Source: an uncultured Planctomycetales bacterium (GTDB lineage Bacteria > Omnitrophota > Gorgyraeia > Zapsychrales > JAHFFX01). Taken from it: a stretch of 64,000 nt of DNA. This document shows positions 7,717 to 16,907 of this stretch, one piece after another. Position 1 is the first letter of the stretch, and every line of letters starts with the position of its first letter. The stretch lies in assembly GCA_964372915.1 (NCBI GenBank), contig CAYJRN010000005.1, forward strand, positions 11,329 to 75,328. The letters are read 5' to 3'. The notes under the pieces were generated by a model. It was not told the DNA's origin. It searched no databases and saw only the letters and a list, made by a program, of their open reading frames with translations. The translations under genes and the position numbers were made by a program.

Positions 7717-9240
7717 TTACGGCTTAAAGGAAGAAAAGGTTAATAAGGTCCTTTGGACAGCCCGTTGCCAGCCGGCATACAGCCCTTCCCGCGTCTTAGC
7801 GGCCATCGACGGAAAGAAGATCCTGTCGGTTTCTTGAAGTCTTTTGAAATCCGCAGCGCCTTTCCATAATCCAACGCTGACTCCGGCTAAAATGGCCGCG
7901 CCCCGGACCGTGGATTCGATACCCCGAGGGCGAACGATTTTTGCGCCCAGCACATCCGCTTGGAACTGCATCAAAAAATTATTCTTGCAAGCGCCCCCAT
8001 CCACCTTCAACTCCTTCACCCGATGATGGAATTCCTCTTGCATCAGGTCAAAAACATCCCGCGTTTGATAGGCAATCGATTCCAGCGCCGCCCGGATTAT
8101 ATGTCGCACGTTTGAGCCCCGGGTCAGCCCCGCGATAAGGCCGCGGGCCGCAGAGTCCCAGTAAGGCGCGCCCAAACCCGTGAACGCGGGAACAAAATAA
8201 ACGCCTTGCGTGTCGGAAACGCCGCGAATCGCGCGTTCAGACTCCGACGAGGTTTTGAGGACTTTTAATTCATCGCGCAACCACTGTATCGCCGCCCCGG
8301 CCACAAAAACCGAACCTTCCAACGCATAAACGGGATTTCCTTTTTCATCACAGGCAATGGTTGAAAGCAATCCTTTTTTGGAATAAATCAGTTTCTTGCC
8401 TGTATTTAAAACCATAAAACATCCCGTCCCATACGTATTCTTAACGGTGCCGGATGTAAAACAGCCTTGTCCGTACAGAGCCGCCTGCTGATCACCCATC
8501 ACGGCCGTAATCGGAATGCCGGAAGGCAATCCGGCGACACCGTCGGCGGTCTTGCCGAAGGAACTGCCGGATTTTTGTACGCACGGCAAGACCGCCGACG
8601 GGACATTCAAAATCCTCAAAATTTCCTCATCCCATTTGAGCGTGCGGATATTAAAAAGCATTGTGCGCGAGGCATTGGTCATATCGGTCGCGTGAAAACG
8701 CCCGCCGGTCAGTTTCCAAATGAGCCAACTGTCGATGGTGCCGAAGGCAATCTCGCCTTTAAGGGCTCGGTCCCGTAAACCGGGGACACGATCCAAAATC
8801 CATTTGATTTTGGTACCGGAAAAATAAGGATCAATGACCAATCCGGTTTTAAGACGCACTGTGGCGGCATGGCGCGCCAGGCCTTTGCAGATATCGGCTG
8901 TCCGACGGCATTGCCAGACGATCGCGCGATGGACAGGTTTTGAGGTTTTGCGGTCCCAGAGGACGGTTGTTTCCCGTTGATTGGTAATTCCGATGGCGAG
9001 AATCTTGGAGGGATTGATCTTGGCTGCTGCGACGGCTTTGCGGATTACAGTTTCAACCGAACGCCAGATCTCCTCGGCATCGTGCTCGACCCAGCCGGGC
9101 TTGGGATAATACTGCTTGAACTCGCGGGTGGCACTTCCTGCGATGCGGCCCTTGGAATCAAAAACATAGGCCCTTGAACCCGTGGTCCCTTGATCGAGGG
9201 CGAGGATATACTGTTTTTTCAAGGCAAATTTTAATTTCAA
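7717..9240 (-). CDS. glpK: glycerol kinase
   Basis: 507 aa; FGGY kinase, ILALDQGTTGSRAYVFD N-terminus typical of GlpK. Confidence 0.92.
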   Translation of the reverse strand: MKLKFALKKQYILALDQGTTGSRAYVFDSKGRIAGSATREFKQYYPKPGWVEHDAEEIWRSVETVIRKAVAAAKINPSKILAIGITNQRETTVLWDRKTSKPVHRAIVWQCRRTADICKGLARHAATVRLKTGLVIDPYFSGTKIKWILDRVPGLRDRALKGEIAFGTIDSWLIWKLTGGRFHATDMTNASRTMLFNIRTLKWDEEILRILNVPSAVLPCVQKSGSSFGKTADGVAGLPSGIPITAVMGDQQAALYGQGCFTSGTVKNTYGTGCFMVLNTGKKLIYSKKGLLSTIACDEKGNPVYALEGSVFVAGAAIQWLRDELKVLKTSSESERAIRGVSDTQGVYFVPAFTGLGAPYWDSAARGLIAGLTRGSNVRHIIRAALESIAYQTRDVFDLMQEEFHHRVKELKVDGGACKNNFLMQFQADVLGAKIVRPRGIESTVRGAAILAGVSVGLWKGAADFKRLQETDRIFFPSMAAKTREGLYAGWQRAVQRTLLTFSSFKP

Positions 9241-10676
9241 AATTTTGTTTCCGCCAGCAGATACTGATGAATCCCTTCGGCGGCCGCGCGCCCCTCGGCA
9301 ATGGCCCAGACCACGAGCGACTGTCCGCGCGCCATGTCCCCGGCGACAAAAACCCCGGGAACACCGGTCATCTTGTTCTTATCCTGCTTGACGTTGCCCC
9401 GCGCGTCGAGCTCTACTCCCAATTCTTCCAGCATGCCTTTTTTGACCGGGCCCAAAAAACCCATGGCCAGAAGCACCAGGTCGCATTCCACTTCGAATTC
9501 CGAACCCGGGATTTCCTTCATCGCGCTTCTGCCGGTCACGGGATCCTGGGGGCCGAATTCCAATCGTACGGCGTGAAGTTTTTTGAGCTTTCCGTTTTCA
9601 CCGCTGAATTTTTTGGTCAGGATGGAATAATCCTGCTCAACGCCTTCTTCGTGAGAACTCGATTTTCTTTGGACAAAGGCCCATTGGGGCCAGGGATTAT
9701 CGAAGGATCGATCCTTGGGGGGCTGGGGCAGCAATTCAAATTGTTTCACCCACACAGCCCCCTGACGATTGGACGTTCCTAAACAGTCGGAGCCCGTATC
9801 GCCTCCGCCTAAAATGACAACTCTTTTTGCCTGGGCCGTAATACTAGCCTTGGGATCGACAGGCTGCCCCAAATTTCGACGGTTCTGCTGCGGCAAGAAG
9901 ATCATGGCCTGGTAAATGCCCTCGAGCTCACGCCCGGGAATCGGTAAATCGCGCCAATCTTCCGCTCCGCCGCACAAAACCAGCGCGTCATATTTTTTCC
10001 GCAATTCTTTCGCGGAAATGTTGACACCGACGTGAGCGCCCGTCTTCAATTCAACGCCTTCCTGATGCATTCTCTTGACGCGCCGCTCCACAATCCACTT
10101 TTCCAGCTTGAAATCCGGAATTCCTAAGGTGAGAAGTCCGCCAATCACCTCATTTTTTTCATAGACCGTCACCTTGTGGCCCATCTTATTGAGCTCATCC
10201 GCGCACGCTAAGCCCGCGGGACCGGAACCGACGACGGCAACTTTTTTGCCCGTGCGGTGTTTGGGAGGATGGGGCTTTACCCATCCGTGTTCATAAGCCT
10301 TGTCAATGATCGCGACTTCGATATTTTTGATCGTCACCGCCGGCTGGTTGATGGCCAACACACAGGCGTTCTCGCAGGGGGCCGGACAGATACGACCGGT
10401 GAACTCCGGAAAATTATTCGTTTTGTGAAGCCGTTCAATCGCTTCCTGCCAGCGATCATTAAAGACGAGATCATTCCAGTCGGGAATGATATTGCCGATA
10501 GGACACCCGGACTGACAAAACGGAACGCCGCAATCCATGCAGCGTCCGCCTTGTTTTTTTAACTCTTCTTCCGGCAAAAGAACTGAAAATTCTTTCCAGT
10601 GCTTTAATCGTTCTTCAACGGGTTCTTTCTTGAATTCCTTACGATCATATTTCATGAACCCTTTAATATCACCCAC
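9237..10676 (-). CDS. gltD: glutamate synthase small (NADPH) subunit
   Basis: 479 aa; N-terminal 4Fe-4S Cys cluster plus two Rossmann FAD/NAD motifs (VAVVGSGPAG); GTG start with GGAG SD. Confidence 0.9.
   Translation of the reverse strand: MGDIKGFMKYDRKEFKKEPVEERLKHWKEFSVLLPEEELKKQGGRCMDCGVPFCQSGCPIGNIIPDWNDLVFNDRWQEAIERLHKTNNFPEFTGRICPAPCENACVLAINQPAVTIKNIEVAIIDKAYEHGWVKPHPPKHRTGKKVAVVGSGPAGLACADELNKMGHKVTVYEKNEVIGGLLTLGIPDFKLEKWIVERRVKRMHQEGVELKTGAHVGVNISAKELRKKYDALVLCGGAEDWRDLPIPGRELEGIYQAMIFLPQQNRRNLGQPVDPKASITAQAKRVVILGGGDTGSDCLGTSNRQGAVWVKQFELLPQPPKDRSFDNPWPQWAFVQRKSSSHEEGVEQDYSILTKKFSGENGKLKKLHAVRLEFGPQDPVTGRSAMKEIPGSEFEVECDLVLLAMGFLGPVKKGMLEELGVELDARGNVKQDKNKMTGVPGVFVAGDMARGQSLVVWAIAEGRAAAEGIHQYLLAETKF
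10651..10673. repeat. 23-bp direct repeat copy A (inside the first codons of gltD)
   Basis: TTCATGAACCCTTTAATATCACC; 20/20 + 2/3 identical to 11188-11210. Confidence 0.9.
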
Positions 10677-10697
10677 AATACATCTCCATATTACTTT

Positions 10698-10858
10698 TAG
10701 GCATCGACCCGGCGTTCTTCATGTGTCCCAATATTTACCTGGGGTACATCAGCCGGGGTTAACCTCTGAAAATCTTCCCTTGTAATACCGCTAAGAAAGC
10801 TCTGGATATGCGTAACGGCATCGAGAATATGCTTTAAATAAATTTCATTACTTTTCAT
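10698..10858 (-). pseudogene. hepT: truncated HepT/DUF86 (HEPN) toxin fragment
   Basis: 53-codon ORF MKSNEIYLKHILDAVTHIQSFLSGITREDFQ... matches the DUF86 N-terminus then terminates early. Its start overlaps the mntA stop by 11 nt, as in HepT/MntA pairs. Confidence 0.55.
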
Positions 10859-11171
10859 AAACGACTTTCATGGAATGCAAAATATCATTTTTGAGATACG
10901 GACTAAGACTGTCCATGGTCAGTAAATCGACTTTCCTGTGAAATATCTTCTGCATCTCGCTTTCCGCATGAATTAAATCAATCAAGCTTTTTGTCTGATT
11001 GGCGTCAAACTTAATGAGCACATCAAGGTCACTTCTTCCTTTCTGCTGTTTTCTGACAAACGACCCAAACAACGCCATAAAAGTAATACCGTTGGCCTCG
11101 CAAAGATTTTGAATTTTTTCTATGATAGACTTTTTTCTAAATTGAATCGGCAGGGAATTGATCTTAACCAT
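10848..11171 (-). CDS. mntA: MntA-type minimal nucleotidyltransferase (antitoxin of HEPN/MNT module)
   Basis: 107 aa; GSxxRGxxxxxSDxD motif (LFGSFVRKQQKGRSDLDVLI); GGAGGT SD 5 nt upstream. Confidence 0.8.
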   Translation of the reverse strand: MVKINSLPIQFRKKSIIEKIQNLCEANGITFMALFGSFVRKQQKGRSDLDVLIKFDANQTKSLIDLIHAESEMQKIFHRKVDLLTMDSLSPYLKNDILHSMKVVYEK

Positions 11172-11187
11172 TTTCTACCTCCAATGC

Positions 11188-11210
11188 TTCATGAACCCTT
11201 TAATATCGCC
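11188..11210. repeat. 23-bp direct repeat copy B (gltD 5'-end remnant upstream of mntA RBS)
   Basis: TTCATGAACCCTTTAATATCGCC; reproduces the GDIKGFMK coding segment of gltD out of context. Confidence 0.9.
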
Positions 11211-11243
11211 ATGTAGATTTATCATCCCTTCTTCCATGAATCT

Positions 11244-11504
11244 TTATTTAAAAGGAATATAAACTTGAAATGCCGCAATGATCGTTAAAACTATTGTCAA
11301 AACCACTAAAACCCATGTCAACTGAACCAATCTTTCATTAGCTGTATTTTGCGTTTTGATATACCGTCGCTGAATTTCTGCAATAACAACAGAAAATTTA
11401 TCAGTGGAATGTGTCCATTCGCCTATCCGCTCATGAACATACTGCTTGAGCCAATCTTCCAGTTCTTTATCTGTATATTCTGTAAAATCCTTACGAGTCC
11501 CCAC
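11244..11504 (-). CDS. hypothetical small tail-anchored membrane protein
   Basis: 86 aa; charged N-terminal 60 aa then a single C-terminal TM helix (LTWVLVVLTIVLTIIAAF); AT-rich codon usage. Confidence 0.45.
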   Translation of the reverse strand: MGTRKDFTEYTDKELEDWLKQYVHERIGEWTHSTDKFSVVIAEIQRRYIKTQNTANERLVQLTWVLVVLTIVLTIIAAFQVYIPFK

Positions 11505-11578
11505 AACCTATCCTCCAGACCATTTAAACACTTACTCCCGTCATCAGCACTTCTTGAAAAAAGCTCGCCGGGAATGCT

Positions 11579-11794
11579 TTATCGTTTTATATCTTCCGTT
11601 AGCGCCATCTCAACTTGAAATTCTTTGTGTCCGCCAAACAATTTGGCCGCGTCGAGGAATTCAATCCCCACCGGTTTACCTGCGGTATCATAATCAACTA
11701 TGACACCTTCAGCAATTTCGTCGCTTTCTTCAATTTTGGATTTTCGCAATCGAATATATAAAACATCTGCCTTAGAAGCATAGCTTATTTTCAT
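11579..11794 (-). CDS. DUF2283 family protein
   Basis: 71 aa; MKISYASKADVLYIRL...DYDTAGKPVGIEFLDA matches the DUF2283 pattern. Confidence 0.75.
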   Translation of the reverse strand: MKISYASKADVLYIRLRKSKIEESDEIAEGVIVDYDTAGKPVGIEFLDAAKLFGGHKEFQVEMALTEDIKR

Positions 11795-11800
11795 AAATTC

Positions 11801-12013
11801 TTAACCGGCAATCGTTTCAAAAGCCACTTTCAAGTGATCCAGCTTGGCCACTTGAAAATTCAATTTTTCAAAACCCAGCACGTGTCCTTTTTTGTCTTTC
11901 ATAAGAACAACCTCTTCCGCGGTTTCTTCACAAACATACTCACGCTTGGGTTCGCCAAACCAAACCGTCAGGGTATTGCCGGTACGATCATAAAATACCT
12001 TTACTTGGGCCAT
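11801..12013 (-). CDS. DUF2283 family protein (second, divergent copy)
   Basis: 70 aa; ...GNTLTVWFGE...DKKGHVLGFEKLN resembles DUF2283; overlaps upstream gene by 13 nt. Confidence 0.6.
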   Translation of the reverse strand: MAQVKVFYDRTGNTLTVWFGEPKREYVCEETAEEVVLMKDKKGHVLGFEKLNFQVAKLDHLKVAFETIAG

Positions 12014-12330
12014 ATTTTTTCTCCTGCTTTGATAATATCCGTTAAATAAGCTGTTATAAGAAATCCTTCTCCGTTAAGCCGTTTGCTCACAGCGCATACC
12101 CACTTGCCTTTATGGTAAGTCTTATAAAACAAATAAACAGCCGAATCTGTTTTACTCCTTCGGATTTCTTCGGGGTTCTCAAGAGTAGCCTTGACTTCTT
12201 TCTCATGTCCAGCCATCAACGGATGCTTAATTCCAACAATAATCTCCCAATAAGAACGGCTGACATGCACACGAAAACCAAGCGGCGTTAAAACATCAAA
12301 CCGTACACCTTTCCCATTCTGTTTTTCCAT
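12001..12330 (-). CDS. DUF4258-like small protein (putative toxin partner of DUF2283)
   Basis: 109 aa; LENPEEI... and C-terminal hydrophobic stretch ending ITAY resemble DUF4258; start codon 2 nt after gltB stop. Confidence 0.5.
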   Translation of the reverse strand: MEKQNGKGVRFDVLTPLGFRVHVSRSYWEIIVGIKHPLMAGHEKEVKATLENPEEIRRSKTDSAVYLFYKTYHKGKWVCAVSKRLNGEGFLITAYLTDIIKAGEKIWPK

Positions 12331-12332
12331 CT

Positions 12333-16907
<4,575 letters not shown>

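What the first reader, a model, noticed from the sequence alone, without database searches (positions are those of the whole stretch)
10651..11210. mntA/hepT cassette bracketed by a 23-bp direct repeat that duplicates the first codons of gltD
TTCATGAACCCTTTAATATC(A/G)CC occurs at 10651-10673, where it encodes gltD residues 2-9 (GDIKGFMK). It recurs at 11188-11210, just upstream of the mntA ribosome-binding site, where the same codons are out of context and followed by a stop. The 515 bp between the copies hold only the MntA nucleotidyltransferase and a truncated HepT. A 20/20-nt match plus 2 of the next 3 is not chance. It looks like an insertion footprint (target duplication or att-core duplication) of a mobile toxin-antitoxin cassette that landed in the 5' end of gltD and regenerated the gltD N-terminus.
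Basis: seen in the sequence. Interest (0 to 1): 0.72.

Follow-up and report, generated by a model that had tools for sequence, protein, structure and literature searches.

The report
Old gltD-start scar beside mntA cassette
The repeat is real: a leftover copy of the first ten codons of the glutamate-synthase gene gltD, left where a small toxin-antitoxin module was inserted into a gene-insertion hot spot of an Omnitrophota bacterium. It is a fairly ordinary insertion scar, but an old one that is shared with other lineages and oddly well preserved.

Summary
The 23-mer repeat is confirmed (22/23, 20/20 core, none expected by chance).

- **What the copies are.** On the coding (minus) strand the downstream copy is the working gltD start. 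The upstream copy (11184-11212) is a 29-nt stub of a gltD start: ATG plus codons 2-10 with one G lost. It is fused directly to the mntA ribosome-binding site.
- **Empty sites.** 38 Omnitrophota orthologues have one such start, always ATG. Most have gltB and gltD adjacent, including the two closest relatives found (83-85% aa).
- **Hot spot.** The window's 1.66-kb, 39%-GC island of small toxin-antitoxin genes is therefore an insertion. Relatives carry other cargo at the same place.
- **Not a fresh target duplication.** The same stub|GGAGG-mntA junction occurs in two other lineages (MntA 75-84% identical). One of them has an intact hepT that ends 4 nt before the gltD start codon.
- **The stubs have not decayed.** Each looks like a genuine gltD allele and is closer to another genome's gltD than to its own.
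- **Carriers are scattered** in a GltD tree, and cassette DNA is mosaic.

I infer turnover by recombination between stub and resident gltD start, with no recombinase. Here hepT lost codons 33-110, leaving an orphan MntA antitoxin.

The parts
10647..10676 (-). Working gltD start: GTG + codons 2-10 (MGDIKGFMKY). Contains the reported copy 10651-10673.
   Evidence: It is the only GTG start among 39 gltD 5' ends compared. A GGAG lies 7 nt upstream.
11184..11212 (-). Stub (relic) of a gltD 5' end: ATG + codons 2-10 with one G of the ATGGGC run deleted. Contains the reported copy 11188-11210.
   Evidence: With the G restored it is 29/30 identical to the gltD start of L018 and 26/30 to the window's own. 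The homologous stub sits at the same junction in L088 (153-182) and L087 (1115-1144).
10848..11183 (-). mntA (ATG at 11171-11169, 107 aa) with its RBS leader TGGAGGTAGAAA (11183-11172), which abuts the stub.
   Evidence: Pfam PF18765 58.9 bits and PF01909 49.8 bits, both above cut-off. NCBIfam MntA_antitoxin 53.8 bits, below the cut-off of 60. PADLOC PDC-S09. hGS and DxD motifs are visible in the alignment.
10763..10858 (-). hepT remnant: codons 1-32 only. The ORF then runs on out of homology to a stop at 10697.
   Evidence: 30/32 identical to residues 1-32 of the 110-aa HepT of L090. Homology ends at ...GATTTTCAGAGG. No Pfam hit for the 53-aa ORF. Full-length HepT in L090 is PF01934 at 100 bits.
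10677..10762 (-). Spacer between the hepT break and gltD. Its first ~19 nt resemble the sequence just after the hepT stop in L090. It carries the GGAG used by gltD.
   Evidence: AGGTTAACCCCGGCTGATG versus L090 AGATTAATCCCGGCT-ATG (17/19), but the score is within the shuffle range. TATGGAGATGTATTG versus L090 TATGGAGATGCATCG was matched by eye. Assignment is tentative.
10677..12332 (-). Whole inserted island between gltB and gltD. It holds a DUF4258-like gene (12001-12330), DUF2283 (11801-12013), DUF2283 (11579-11794), an 86-aa gene of unknown function (11244-11504), the stub, mntA and the hepT remnant.
   Evidence: ORFs, Pfam. GC is 39% against 53% for gltB and gltD. The same arrangement is seen in five same-strain contigs. 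No terminator-like site on the minus strand inside the island.
9237..10676 (-). gltD (glutamate synthase small subunit, 479 aa).
   Evidence: Pfam Fer4_20 + Pyr_redox_2. 80-85% aa identity to Omnitrophota GltD.
12333..16907 (-). gltB (glutamate synthase large subunit, 1524 aa), the upstream flank of the hot spot.
   Evidence: Its C-terminal 300 aa match the gene immediately upstream of gltD in relatives.

Best explanation
The upstream repeat copy is a 29-nt stub of a gltD start codon region, fused to the mntA ribosome-binding site. The downstream copy is the working gltD start. Together they mark the insertion of a compact mntA-hepT (type VII toxin-antitoxin) module after codon 10 of gltD. The insertion lies in the gltB-gltD gap, which is an insertion hot spot for small toxin-antitoxin and defence genes in this Omnitrophota clade.

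Shown:
- The stub is gltD-derived.
- The closest relatives found have empty sites.
- Other relatives carry different cargo at the same place.
- The same stub-mntA junction exists in two other lineages, one with intact hepT that ends 4 nt before the gltD start codon.
- In this genome hepT lost codons 33-110, including the RX4HXY active site. MntA is therefore an orphan antitoxin.

Inferred:
- The founding event was an illegitimate join next to a homologous anchor in gltD (homology-facilitated illegitimate recombination, HFIR), not transposition.
- Since then the module, with the stub as a short left arm and gltD as a long right arm, has been gained, exchanged and cleanly lost by host recombination between the stub and resident gltD starts.
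- This would explain why stubs look like undecayed gltD alleles of other genomes, why carriers are scattered in the GltD tree, and why empty sites are clean.
- All island genes face the same way as gltB and gltD and no terminator-like site was found, so the operon is probably still read through. gltD is translated from a new GTG with its own GGAG.
For: - **Repeat is real.**
- **Stub is a gltD start.** Every stub position lies within the polymorphism of 39 true gltD 5' 30-mers. The L088 stub is 30/30 to the gltD of L008, and the window stub is 29/30 to that of L018.
- **Empty sites.** The distance from the end of the gltB C-terminal match to the gltD start is 10-170 nt in most of about 75 relatives. 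In the closest relatives, L171 (85% aa) and L172 (83%), the stop-to-start gap is 23 and 87 nt.
- **Hot spot.** L007 carries DUF4160/DUF2442. L009 carries a small TA-like pair (unscanned) plus a weak SIR2-like protein. L090 carries eleven small genes including AbiEii.
- **Shared junction.** YAT|WGGAGG-N5-ATG(mntA) in the window, L088 and L087. L088 has 30-nt repeats (26/30) around a 661-nt insert with a full 110-aa HepT.
- **Stubs conserved beyond neutral expectation.** 2, 5 and 7 differences per 30 nt against a 36-39% third-position difference rate in the adjacent mntA. Binomial P = 2e-4, 9e-3 and 0.05.
- **Horizontal signal.** The island is 39% GC against 53% for its flanks. Window 10763-10866 is 96% identical to L090, against 77% for the rest of mntA and 72% for gltD (P about 4e-6). 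Carriers are polyphyletic in a GltD NJ tree.
- **A gltB 3' relic inside the L090 island** shows that flank-gene stubs recur.
- **hepT truncation.**
- **Analogy.** Sequential displacement by HFIR that leaves orphan immunity genes is described for T6SS arrays, and Rhs loci with orphaned 3' regions are cited there (PMC5361080). Recombinase-free HGT hot spots between core genes are described in PMC5635113.
Against: - Only three stubs of 30 nt exist, so the allele and decay statistics are thin, and the mosaic test is post hoc.
- There is no direct sign of current mobility. All five same-strain contigs carry the cassette, and no ORF86-gltD empty variant was found.
- L089 and L090 have close mntA-hepT copies without any stub, so the stub is not needed for the module to persist.
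- 20-30 nt is at the lower limit for RecA-type recombination (my own knowledge).
- The third-position comparison may be inflated by the AT-rich composition of the cassette.
- The GltD tree is NJ without support values, and gltD itself may be recombinant.
- The right-hand junction could not be assigned with statistical support.
Confidence: 0.5

Rival explanations
1. One ancient illegitimate insertion, inherited vertically and lost many times. The stub is an inert scar, and its good preservation and the mosaic segment come from chance and occasional gene conversion. There is no ongoing horizontal movement.
For: - The shared left junction in three lineages fits a single event.
- Clean loss by recombination between the two 30-mers would give normal empty sites.
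- mntA dS of 1.3-2.3 shows the cassettes are old.
- No polymorphism for presence in the sampled strain.
Against: - The stubs show no substitution at any position that is invariant in real gltD, despite neighbouring synonymous sites being 36-39% different.
- Each stub is closer to another genome's gltD than to its own.
- A 96%-identical tract is shared with L090 inside 77%-identical mntA and beside 72%-identical gltD.
- The window groups with empty-site genomes, while L088 and L090 group with L009, which carries other cargo. This needs six or more independent losses.
Confidence: 0.25
2. A mobile ~515-bp cassette inserted into this genome's gltD by a transposase or site-specific recombinase acting in trans, creating the direct repeat as a target-site or att-core duplication at that moment.
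For: - Direct repeats bracket the module and the core is 20/20 identical.
- Empty sites exist.
- The insertion position after codon 10 is the same in three lineages, as a site-specific enzyme would give.
- The core holds an 8-nt palindrome, TTCATGAA.
Against: - The copies differ by four substitutions and an indel over 30 nt. They are no more alike than gltD starts of unrelated genomes, and the exact 20-mer also occurs in the gltD of L014 and L018.
- 30 nt is far longer than usual target-site duplications (my own knowledge).
- No inverted repeats at the ends, no recombinase gene in the island, and no GTTRRRY-type attC core was seen (reading).
- Right-hand boundaries differ between lineages.
- L089 and L090 lack the repeat.
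Confidence: 0.1
3. The stub is kept because it works. It supplies a strong translation-initiation region or short leader ORF that is translationally coupled to mntA, so purifying selection rather than recombination preserves it.
For: - In L087 and L088 the stub has a start codon behind a purine-rich RBS, and its reading frame ends inside the first codons of mntA.
- In the window an in-frame 20-codon ORF ends 4 nt before the mntA ATG.
- The stubs are conserved above neutral expectation.
Against: - The window's stub has lost one G, so its ATG is out of frame.
- The peptide tails differ in all three.
- L089 and L090 express the same mntA from GGAGG alone, without a stub.
- A leader has no obvious reason to keep exactly the gltD pattern of constrained first and second codon positions.
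Confidence: 0.1

Closest known systems
Type VII toxin-antitoxin system MntA/HepT (minimal nucleotidyltransferase antitoxin + HEPN RNase toxin; own knowledge of the Shewanella and Aphanizomenon systems; NCBIfam NF047752/NF047751)
   Same: A small NTase-fold gene upstream of, and overlapping by 11 nt, a HEPN-family gene. GS and DxD motifs are present in MntA. Full-length partners in L088 and L090 carry RDKLIHQY (RX4HXY).
   Different: Here the toxin is cut to 32 codons, so only the antitoxin survives. MntA scores below the NCBIfam equivalog cut-off (53.8 against 60).
Sequential displacement arrays: T6SS effector-immunity arrays of Vibrio cholerae (PMC5361080), with the Rhs loci carrying 'orphaned' 3' regions cited there
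   Same: - New modules enter next to a conserved anchor gene by homologous or homology-facilitated illegitimate recombination.
- Older modules are pushed aside.
- Toxins are lost while immunity or antitoxin genes stay as orphans.
- Fragments of the conserved gene remain between modules.
- Alleles within one genome come from different strains.
   Different: The anchor here is a housekeeping gene (gltD 5' end, and gltB 3' end in L090), not the toxin gene itself. The modules are classical TA pairs. The stub is only 30 nt.
Recombinase-free HGT hot spots between conserved core genes (PMC5635113)
   Same: The cargo between the same two core genes varies among relatives. The island has low GC and no mobility genes, and many relatives have empty sites.
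   Different: The hot spot lies inside an operon (gltB-gltD) and carries duplicated ends of its flanking genes.
Integrative elements that insert into a gene end and carry a replacement end (e.g. prophage e14 in icd; own knowledge)
   Same: The target gene stays functional because a second copy of its end is supplied. The displaced fragment remains as a pseudo-end with silent differences.
   Different: There is no integrase. The element is 0.5-0.7 kb, the 5' end rather than the 3' end is duplicated, and the duplicated part is only 30 nt.

Membership tests
MntA/HepT type VII TA | Antitoxin with minimal nucleotidyltransferase fold (GS...DxD) | tested here: met
   PF18765 at 58.9 bits and PF01909 at 49.8 bits, both above cut-off. 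FGSF and SDLDVLI are visible. The NCBIfam MntA equivalog scores 53.8, below the cut-off of 60, so this is family level only.
MntA/HepT type VII TA | HEPN toxin with RX4HXY active site | tested here: not met
   The window keeps only HepT residues 1-32 and has no Pfam hit. The motif RDKLIHQY is present in the full-length HepT of L090 and L088.
MntA/HepT type VII TA | Antitoxin gene first, overlapping the toxin gene | tested here: met
   mntA 10848-11171 and the hepT stub 10697-10858 overlap by 11 nt. The layout is the same in L087, L088 and L090.
Transposon with target-site duplication | Terminal inverted repeats and a transposase, flanked by short identical direct repeats | tested here: not met
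   No inverted repeats at the cassette ends. No transposase domain in the island proteins. The repeats are 30 nt long and differ at 4 sites plus an indel.
Integron gene cassette | attC site (imperfect palindrome with GTTRRRY core) at the cassette 3' end, with intI/attI nearby | tested here: inconclusive
   By eye I saw no GTTRRRY core at the boundaries and no integrase among the island ORFs. No attC covariance model was available. Hairpins do occur at cassette 3' ends in L087, L088 and L090.
Integrase-driven element with att core in a gene end | Integrase encoded by the element | tested here: not met
   The 514 nt between the repeats hold only mntA and the hepT stub. None of the island's six ORFs has a recombinase domain.
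Integrase-driven element with att core in a gene end | Direct repeats at both ends, with the target gene kept intact | tested here: met
HGT hot spot / sequential displacement array | Different cargo between the same conserved flanking genes in relatives, with empty sites | tested here: met
HGT hot spot / sequential displacement array | Orphan antitoxin or immunity genes with lost or truncated toxins | tested here: met
   The hepT stub. The 71-aa DUF2283 lacks the DUF4258 partner that its L090 orthologue has.
HGT hot spot / sequential displacement array | Fragments of the conserved anchor gene left between modules | tested here: met
   gltD 5' stub in the window, L087 and L088. gltB 3' stub in L090.
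HGT hot spot / sequential displacement array | Acquisition by homologous or homology-facilitated illegitimate recombination | not testable with these tools
   Only indirect evidence: allele pattern, mosaic tract and a polyphyletic distribution.

The most novel reading that the evidence does not exclude
The 30-nt gltD stub is not just a scar but the working 'address label' of a recombinase-free selfish TA cassette. By carrying a copy of one of the most conserved stretches of a housekeeping gene as its left arm, with gltD itself as its right arm, the mntA-hepT module can home into the gltB-gltD junction of any related genome. It can also pop out cleanly using host recombination alone. Each transfer rewrites part of the stub from a live gltD allele, which is why the stub never decays.
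Probability: 0.25. Interest if true: 0.6.

Novelty: new member of a known kind. Interest (0 to 1): 0.35.

Why it matters
The locus gives a clean, datable example of how small toxin-antitoxin modules colonise the inside of an essential operon without breaking it. It also shows how such modules turn into orphan antitoxins, in a phylum (Omnitrophota) known only from metagenomes.

If the stub proves to be an active homology arm, it would show a minimal way for gene cassettes to target a conserved site without any recombinase of their own. That would add a mechanism to the explanation of recombinase-free hot spots and defence islands. As it stands, the finding is mainly a well-documented insertion scar.

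Tried and rejected
- **Exact-protein look-ups.** The 479-aa GltD found nothing, because gene callers used the internal ATG. The 472-aa form, MntA and ORF86 returned only same-strain contigs, all with the cassette. No empty-site strain variant was found.
- **Viral contig scan** for the stub-RBS junction TTCATGAARYATWGGAGG gave 19 hits. All were unrelated chance or phage coding matches.
- **Rfam** on the island and on L087-L090 gave only chance miRNA/lncRNA hits below threshold. The hairpin plus purine-rich repeat is not a known RNA family.
- **The 38-52-nt cassette-boundary repeat** of L087-L090 was not found in the window or in 80 gltD loci. I could not show that it is the native gltD leader.
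- **Local alignments of window 10677-10765** to cassette flanks of L087-L090 scored within the shuffle range. The right junction stays tentative.
- **Second copies in relatives.** Second gltD-start copies were sought in all loci then fetched, and second gltB-end copies in 82 relatives' loci. None were found outside the mntA-bearing islands.
- **Other mntA/hepT copies in the window:** none.
- **More distant MntA homologues** (60% identity or less; the gltD scan covered 79 loci, of which the stub motif was scanned in 77) are not next to gltD and have no stub.
- **Transposon, integron and integrase models** were considered and set aside (see the membership table).
- **Promoter and terminator scan:** nothing above chance.
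Full report
**Observation**

The repeat exists as described. TTCATGAACCCTTTAATATCACC lies at 10651-10673 and TTCATGAACCCTTTAATATCGCC at 11188-11210. The 20-nt core occurs exactly twice in the window even with three mismatches allowed, and never in 100 dinucleotide-preserving shuffles.

All genes here are on the minus strand:

| Feature | Coordinates |
|---|---|
| gltB | 12333-16907 |
| DUF4258-like ORF | 12001-12330 |
| DUF2283 gene | 11801-12013 |
| DUF2283 gene | 11579-11794 |
| 86-aa ORF | 11244-11504 |
| mntA | 10848-11171 |
| 53-codon hepT stub | 10697-10858 |
| gltD | 9237-10676 |

- The gltD copy is GTG GGT GAT ATT AAA GGG TTC ATG AAA TAT.
- The upstream copy is ATG G-C GAT ATT AAA GGG TTC ATG AAG CAT.

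The upstream copy is a start codon plus codons 2-10 with one G missing. It runs straight into TGGAGGTAGAAA-ATG, the ribosome-binding site and start of mntA.

**Organism and empty sites**

GltD relatives are Candidatus Omnitrophota, 85% aa identity at best. In 38 orthologues the gene starts ATG GGY GAY RTH AAA GGN TTY ATG AAR. The window's gltD is the only one with GTG.

In relatives the distance from the end of the gltB C-terminal match to the gltD start is 10-170 nt in nearly all cases. The two closest relatives found, L171 (85%) and L172 (83%), have stop-to-start gaps of 23 and 87 nt and a single gltD start. The window has 1,656 nt between the genes, at 39% GC against 53% for gltB and gltD. 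The island is therefore an insertion, and empty sites with one copy of the motif exist.

**A hot spot**

A few relatives have other cargo in the same gap.
- L007 has a DUF4160-like/DUF2442-like pair (named by eye, not scanned).
- L009 has a small TA-like pair (unscanned) plus a lipoprotein-like ORF and a weak SIR2-like protein.
- L090 has eleven small ORFs, including DUF4258/DUF2283, a second nucleotidyltransferase and an AbiEii toxin.

None of the window's island proteins has a recombinase or transposase domain. No terminator-like site lies inside the island on the coding strand.

**The same junction elsewhere**

Only four 90%-identity clusters of close MntA relatives (75% aa or more) exist in the protein collection. 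A fifth locus came from the metagenome scan.

- **L088** (MntA 75%) reads: hairpin, purine-rich leader, ATGGGCGACGTTAAAGGTTTCATGAAATAT|TGGAGGcaaaaATG-mntA, full-length hepT (110 aa), 4 nt, then ATGGGCGATATCAAAGGTTTCATGAAGTAT-gltD. That is a 661-nt insert between 30-nt direct repeats that match 26/30.
- **L087** (84%) has GTGGGTGACGTTAAAGGTTTCATGAAATAT|AGGAGGcgaaaATG-mntA-hepT, followed by another small gene.
- **L089 and L090** (81-82%) have mntA-hepT without the stub. In L090 gltD lies 1.9 kb further down the same island.

More distant MntA homologues (60% or less) are neither near gltD nor preceded by a stub.

The left junction (codon 10 of the stub joined to WGGAGG) is thus shared by three lineages whose mntA genes differ at dS 1.3-1.7. 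This argues against a duplication made when a cassette landed in this particular genome.

**The stubs look alive**

I compared the three stubs with 39 true gltD 5' 30-mers.
- Every stub nucleotide lies within the polymorphism seen in working genes.
- No position that is invariant in gltD has changed in any stub. The window's single-base deletion is the only defect.
- The L088 stub is identical to the gltD start of L008.
- The window's stub (G restored) is 29/30 to L018 but only 26/30 to its own gltD. The L088 stub is likewise 26/30 to its own gltD.
- The mean distance between gltD starts of different genomes is 6/30.

Pairwise stub differences are 2, 5 and 7 of 30. These are fewer than the third-position difference rate of the adjacent mntA (36-39%) would predict (binomial P = 2e-4, 9e-3, 0.05). 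So the stubs are not old neutral DNA. The two copies in one genome behave like gltD alleles from different genomes.

**Signs of horizontal exchange**

- Window 10763-10866 (mntA 3' end and hepT 5' end) is 96% identical to L090. The rest of mntA is 77% identical and gltD 72% (P about 4e-6, a post hoc test).
- In an NJ tree of GltD, the window sits among empty-site genomes (L171, L006, L172, L010, L008). L088 and L090 sit with L009, which carries other cargo.
- L090 also holds a stub of the gltB 3' end (39 aa, 62% identity, E = 8e-12) between two cassettes. No such stub occurs in 80 other relatives.
- In L087 the whole stub-mntA-hepT unit is bracketed by a 52-nt direct repeat (81%). A 38-nt part of it is identical to the sequence in front of the next cassette in L090.

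**Fate of the toxin**

The window's hepT matches L090 HepT at 30 of its first 32 residues and then stops matching. The HEPN RX4HXY motif (RDKLIHQY in L090 and L088) is gone. The sequence after the break begins with TTAACCCCGGCT, like TTAATCCCGGCT just after the hepT stop of L090. This suggests a roughly 235-nt internal deletion, but the match is too short to be significant. MntA itself is intact, with Pfam hits above cut-off and the NCBIfam equivalog slightly below.

**Interpretation**

Firmly supported:
- The upstream copy is a displaced gltD start left by insertion of a compact mntA-hepT module after codon 10 of gltD.
- The gltB-gltD gap is a hot spot.
- The scar is old and shared.
- hepT was later deleted, leaving an orphan antitoxin.
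- gltD now starts at a GTG with a GGAG 7 nt upstream.

Inferred:
- The founding event was an illegitimate join beside a homologous anchor in gltD. This mode is proposed for T6SS effector-immunity arrays, and Rhs loci with orphaned 3' regions are cited in the same paper (PMC5361080). It fits recombinase-free hot spots between core genes (PMC5635113).
- The module has since moved, been refreshed and been lost by host recombination between the stub and resident gltD starts.

This accounts for the undecayed, foreign-looking stubs, the constant left junction, the variable right junction, the patchy distribution and the clean empty sites. MntA-type TA genes are also reported among laterally transferred cargo in Omnitrophota (bioRxiv 10.64898/2026.05.20.726742).

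**Rivals**

- **A purely vertical scar with many losses.** It fits the shared junction, but not the lack of decay or the mosaic tract.
- **A fresh TSD or att duplication by a trans-acting enzyme.** It fits the identical insertion point and the palindromic TTCATGAA core. It does not fit the allele differences, the missing recombinase and inverted repeats, or the stub-less copies.
- **A functional leader ORF.** It fits the conservation. It does not fit the frameshift in the window or the stub-less L089 and L090.

**Limits**

- Only three stubs of 30 nt are known.
- No read-level evidence for excision or circles was available.
- All five same-strain contigs carry the cassette.
- The tree is a simple NJ tree.
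- 20-30 nt is marginal for RecA-type exchange (my own knowledge).

**Verdict**

This is a real and correctly located footprint. In kind it is ordinary: a TA module inserted in a hot spot with a duplicated gene end. Its unexpected features are its age, its spread and the preservation of the stub. I rate it a new member of a known kind, of moderate-low interest. There is a 25% chance that the stub is an active homing arm of a recombinase-free cassette, which would be more interesting.

Noticed in passing
L090 4070-4186: A stub of the gltB 3' end (39 aa, 62% identical to the GltB C-terminus, E = 8e-12) lies inside the island, between an 86-aa ORF and an AbiEii-type pair. None was found in 80 other relatives.
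   Followed up: partly
L087 1062-1113 and 1855-1906; L088 39-68 and 123-152; L089 223-274; L090 3725-3762: A GC-rich hairpin followed by a 38-52-nt purine-rich repeat (GGGGTGAAAAACCCGGAAGGAAAAAAGGAAAGTTTTTC, then a start codon) marks cassette 5' boundaries. It is 38/38 identical between L087 and L090 at different cassettes. It has no Rfam match and is absent from the window and from 80 gltD loci. Its nature is unknown.
   Followed up: partly
window 10763-10866: This tract is 96% identical to L090, while the rest of mntA is 77% and the flanking gltD 72%. It looks like a recombination mosaic within the cassette, ending exactly at the hepT deletion point.
   Followed up: yes
window 10674-10676: gltD uses GTG, the only non-ATG start among 39 orthologous gltD 5' ends. 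The L087 stub also begins GTG GGT.
   Followed up: partly
window 11175-11237 (minus strand): A 20-codon ORF, MEEGMINLHGDIKGFMKHWR, reads through the stub in the gltD frame and stops 4 nt before the mntA ATG. It may be coincidence or a coupling leader.
   Followed up: no
window 11579-12330: Two DUF2283 genes lie in tandem. The 71-aa gene is 80% nt identical to L090 506-725, where a DUF4258 toxin gene precedes it. In the window that partner is missing, so this is a second orphan antitoxin-like gene.
   Followed up: partly
L009 5716-5838 and L090 1177-1314: A ~40-codon ORF or segment (MFTALTVFL...GFIQDCCLMFYLGKGM) is about 88% identical between two islands with otherwise different cargo. The islands share modules.
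   Followed up: no
window 10651-10658 and 11188-11195: The repeat core begins with the 8-nt palindrome TTCATGAA, which encodes F-M-K.
   Followed up: no
window 11244-11504: An 86-aa ORF with a hydrophobic C-terminal segment. It has no Pfam, NCBIfam or PADLOC match and is found only in same-strain contigs.
   Followed up: partly
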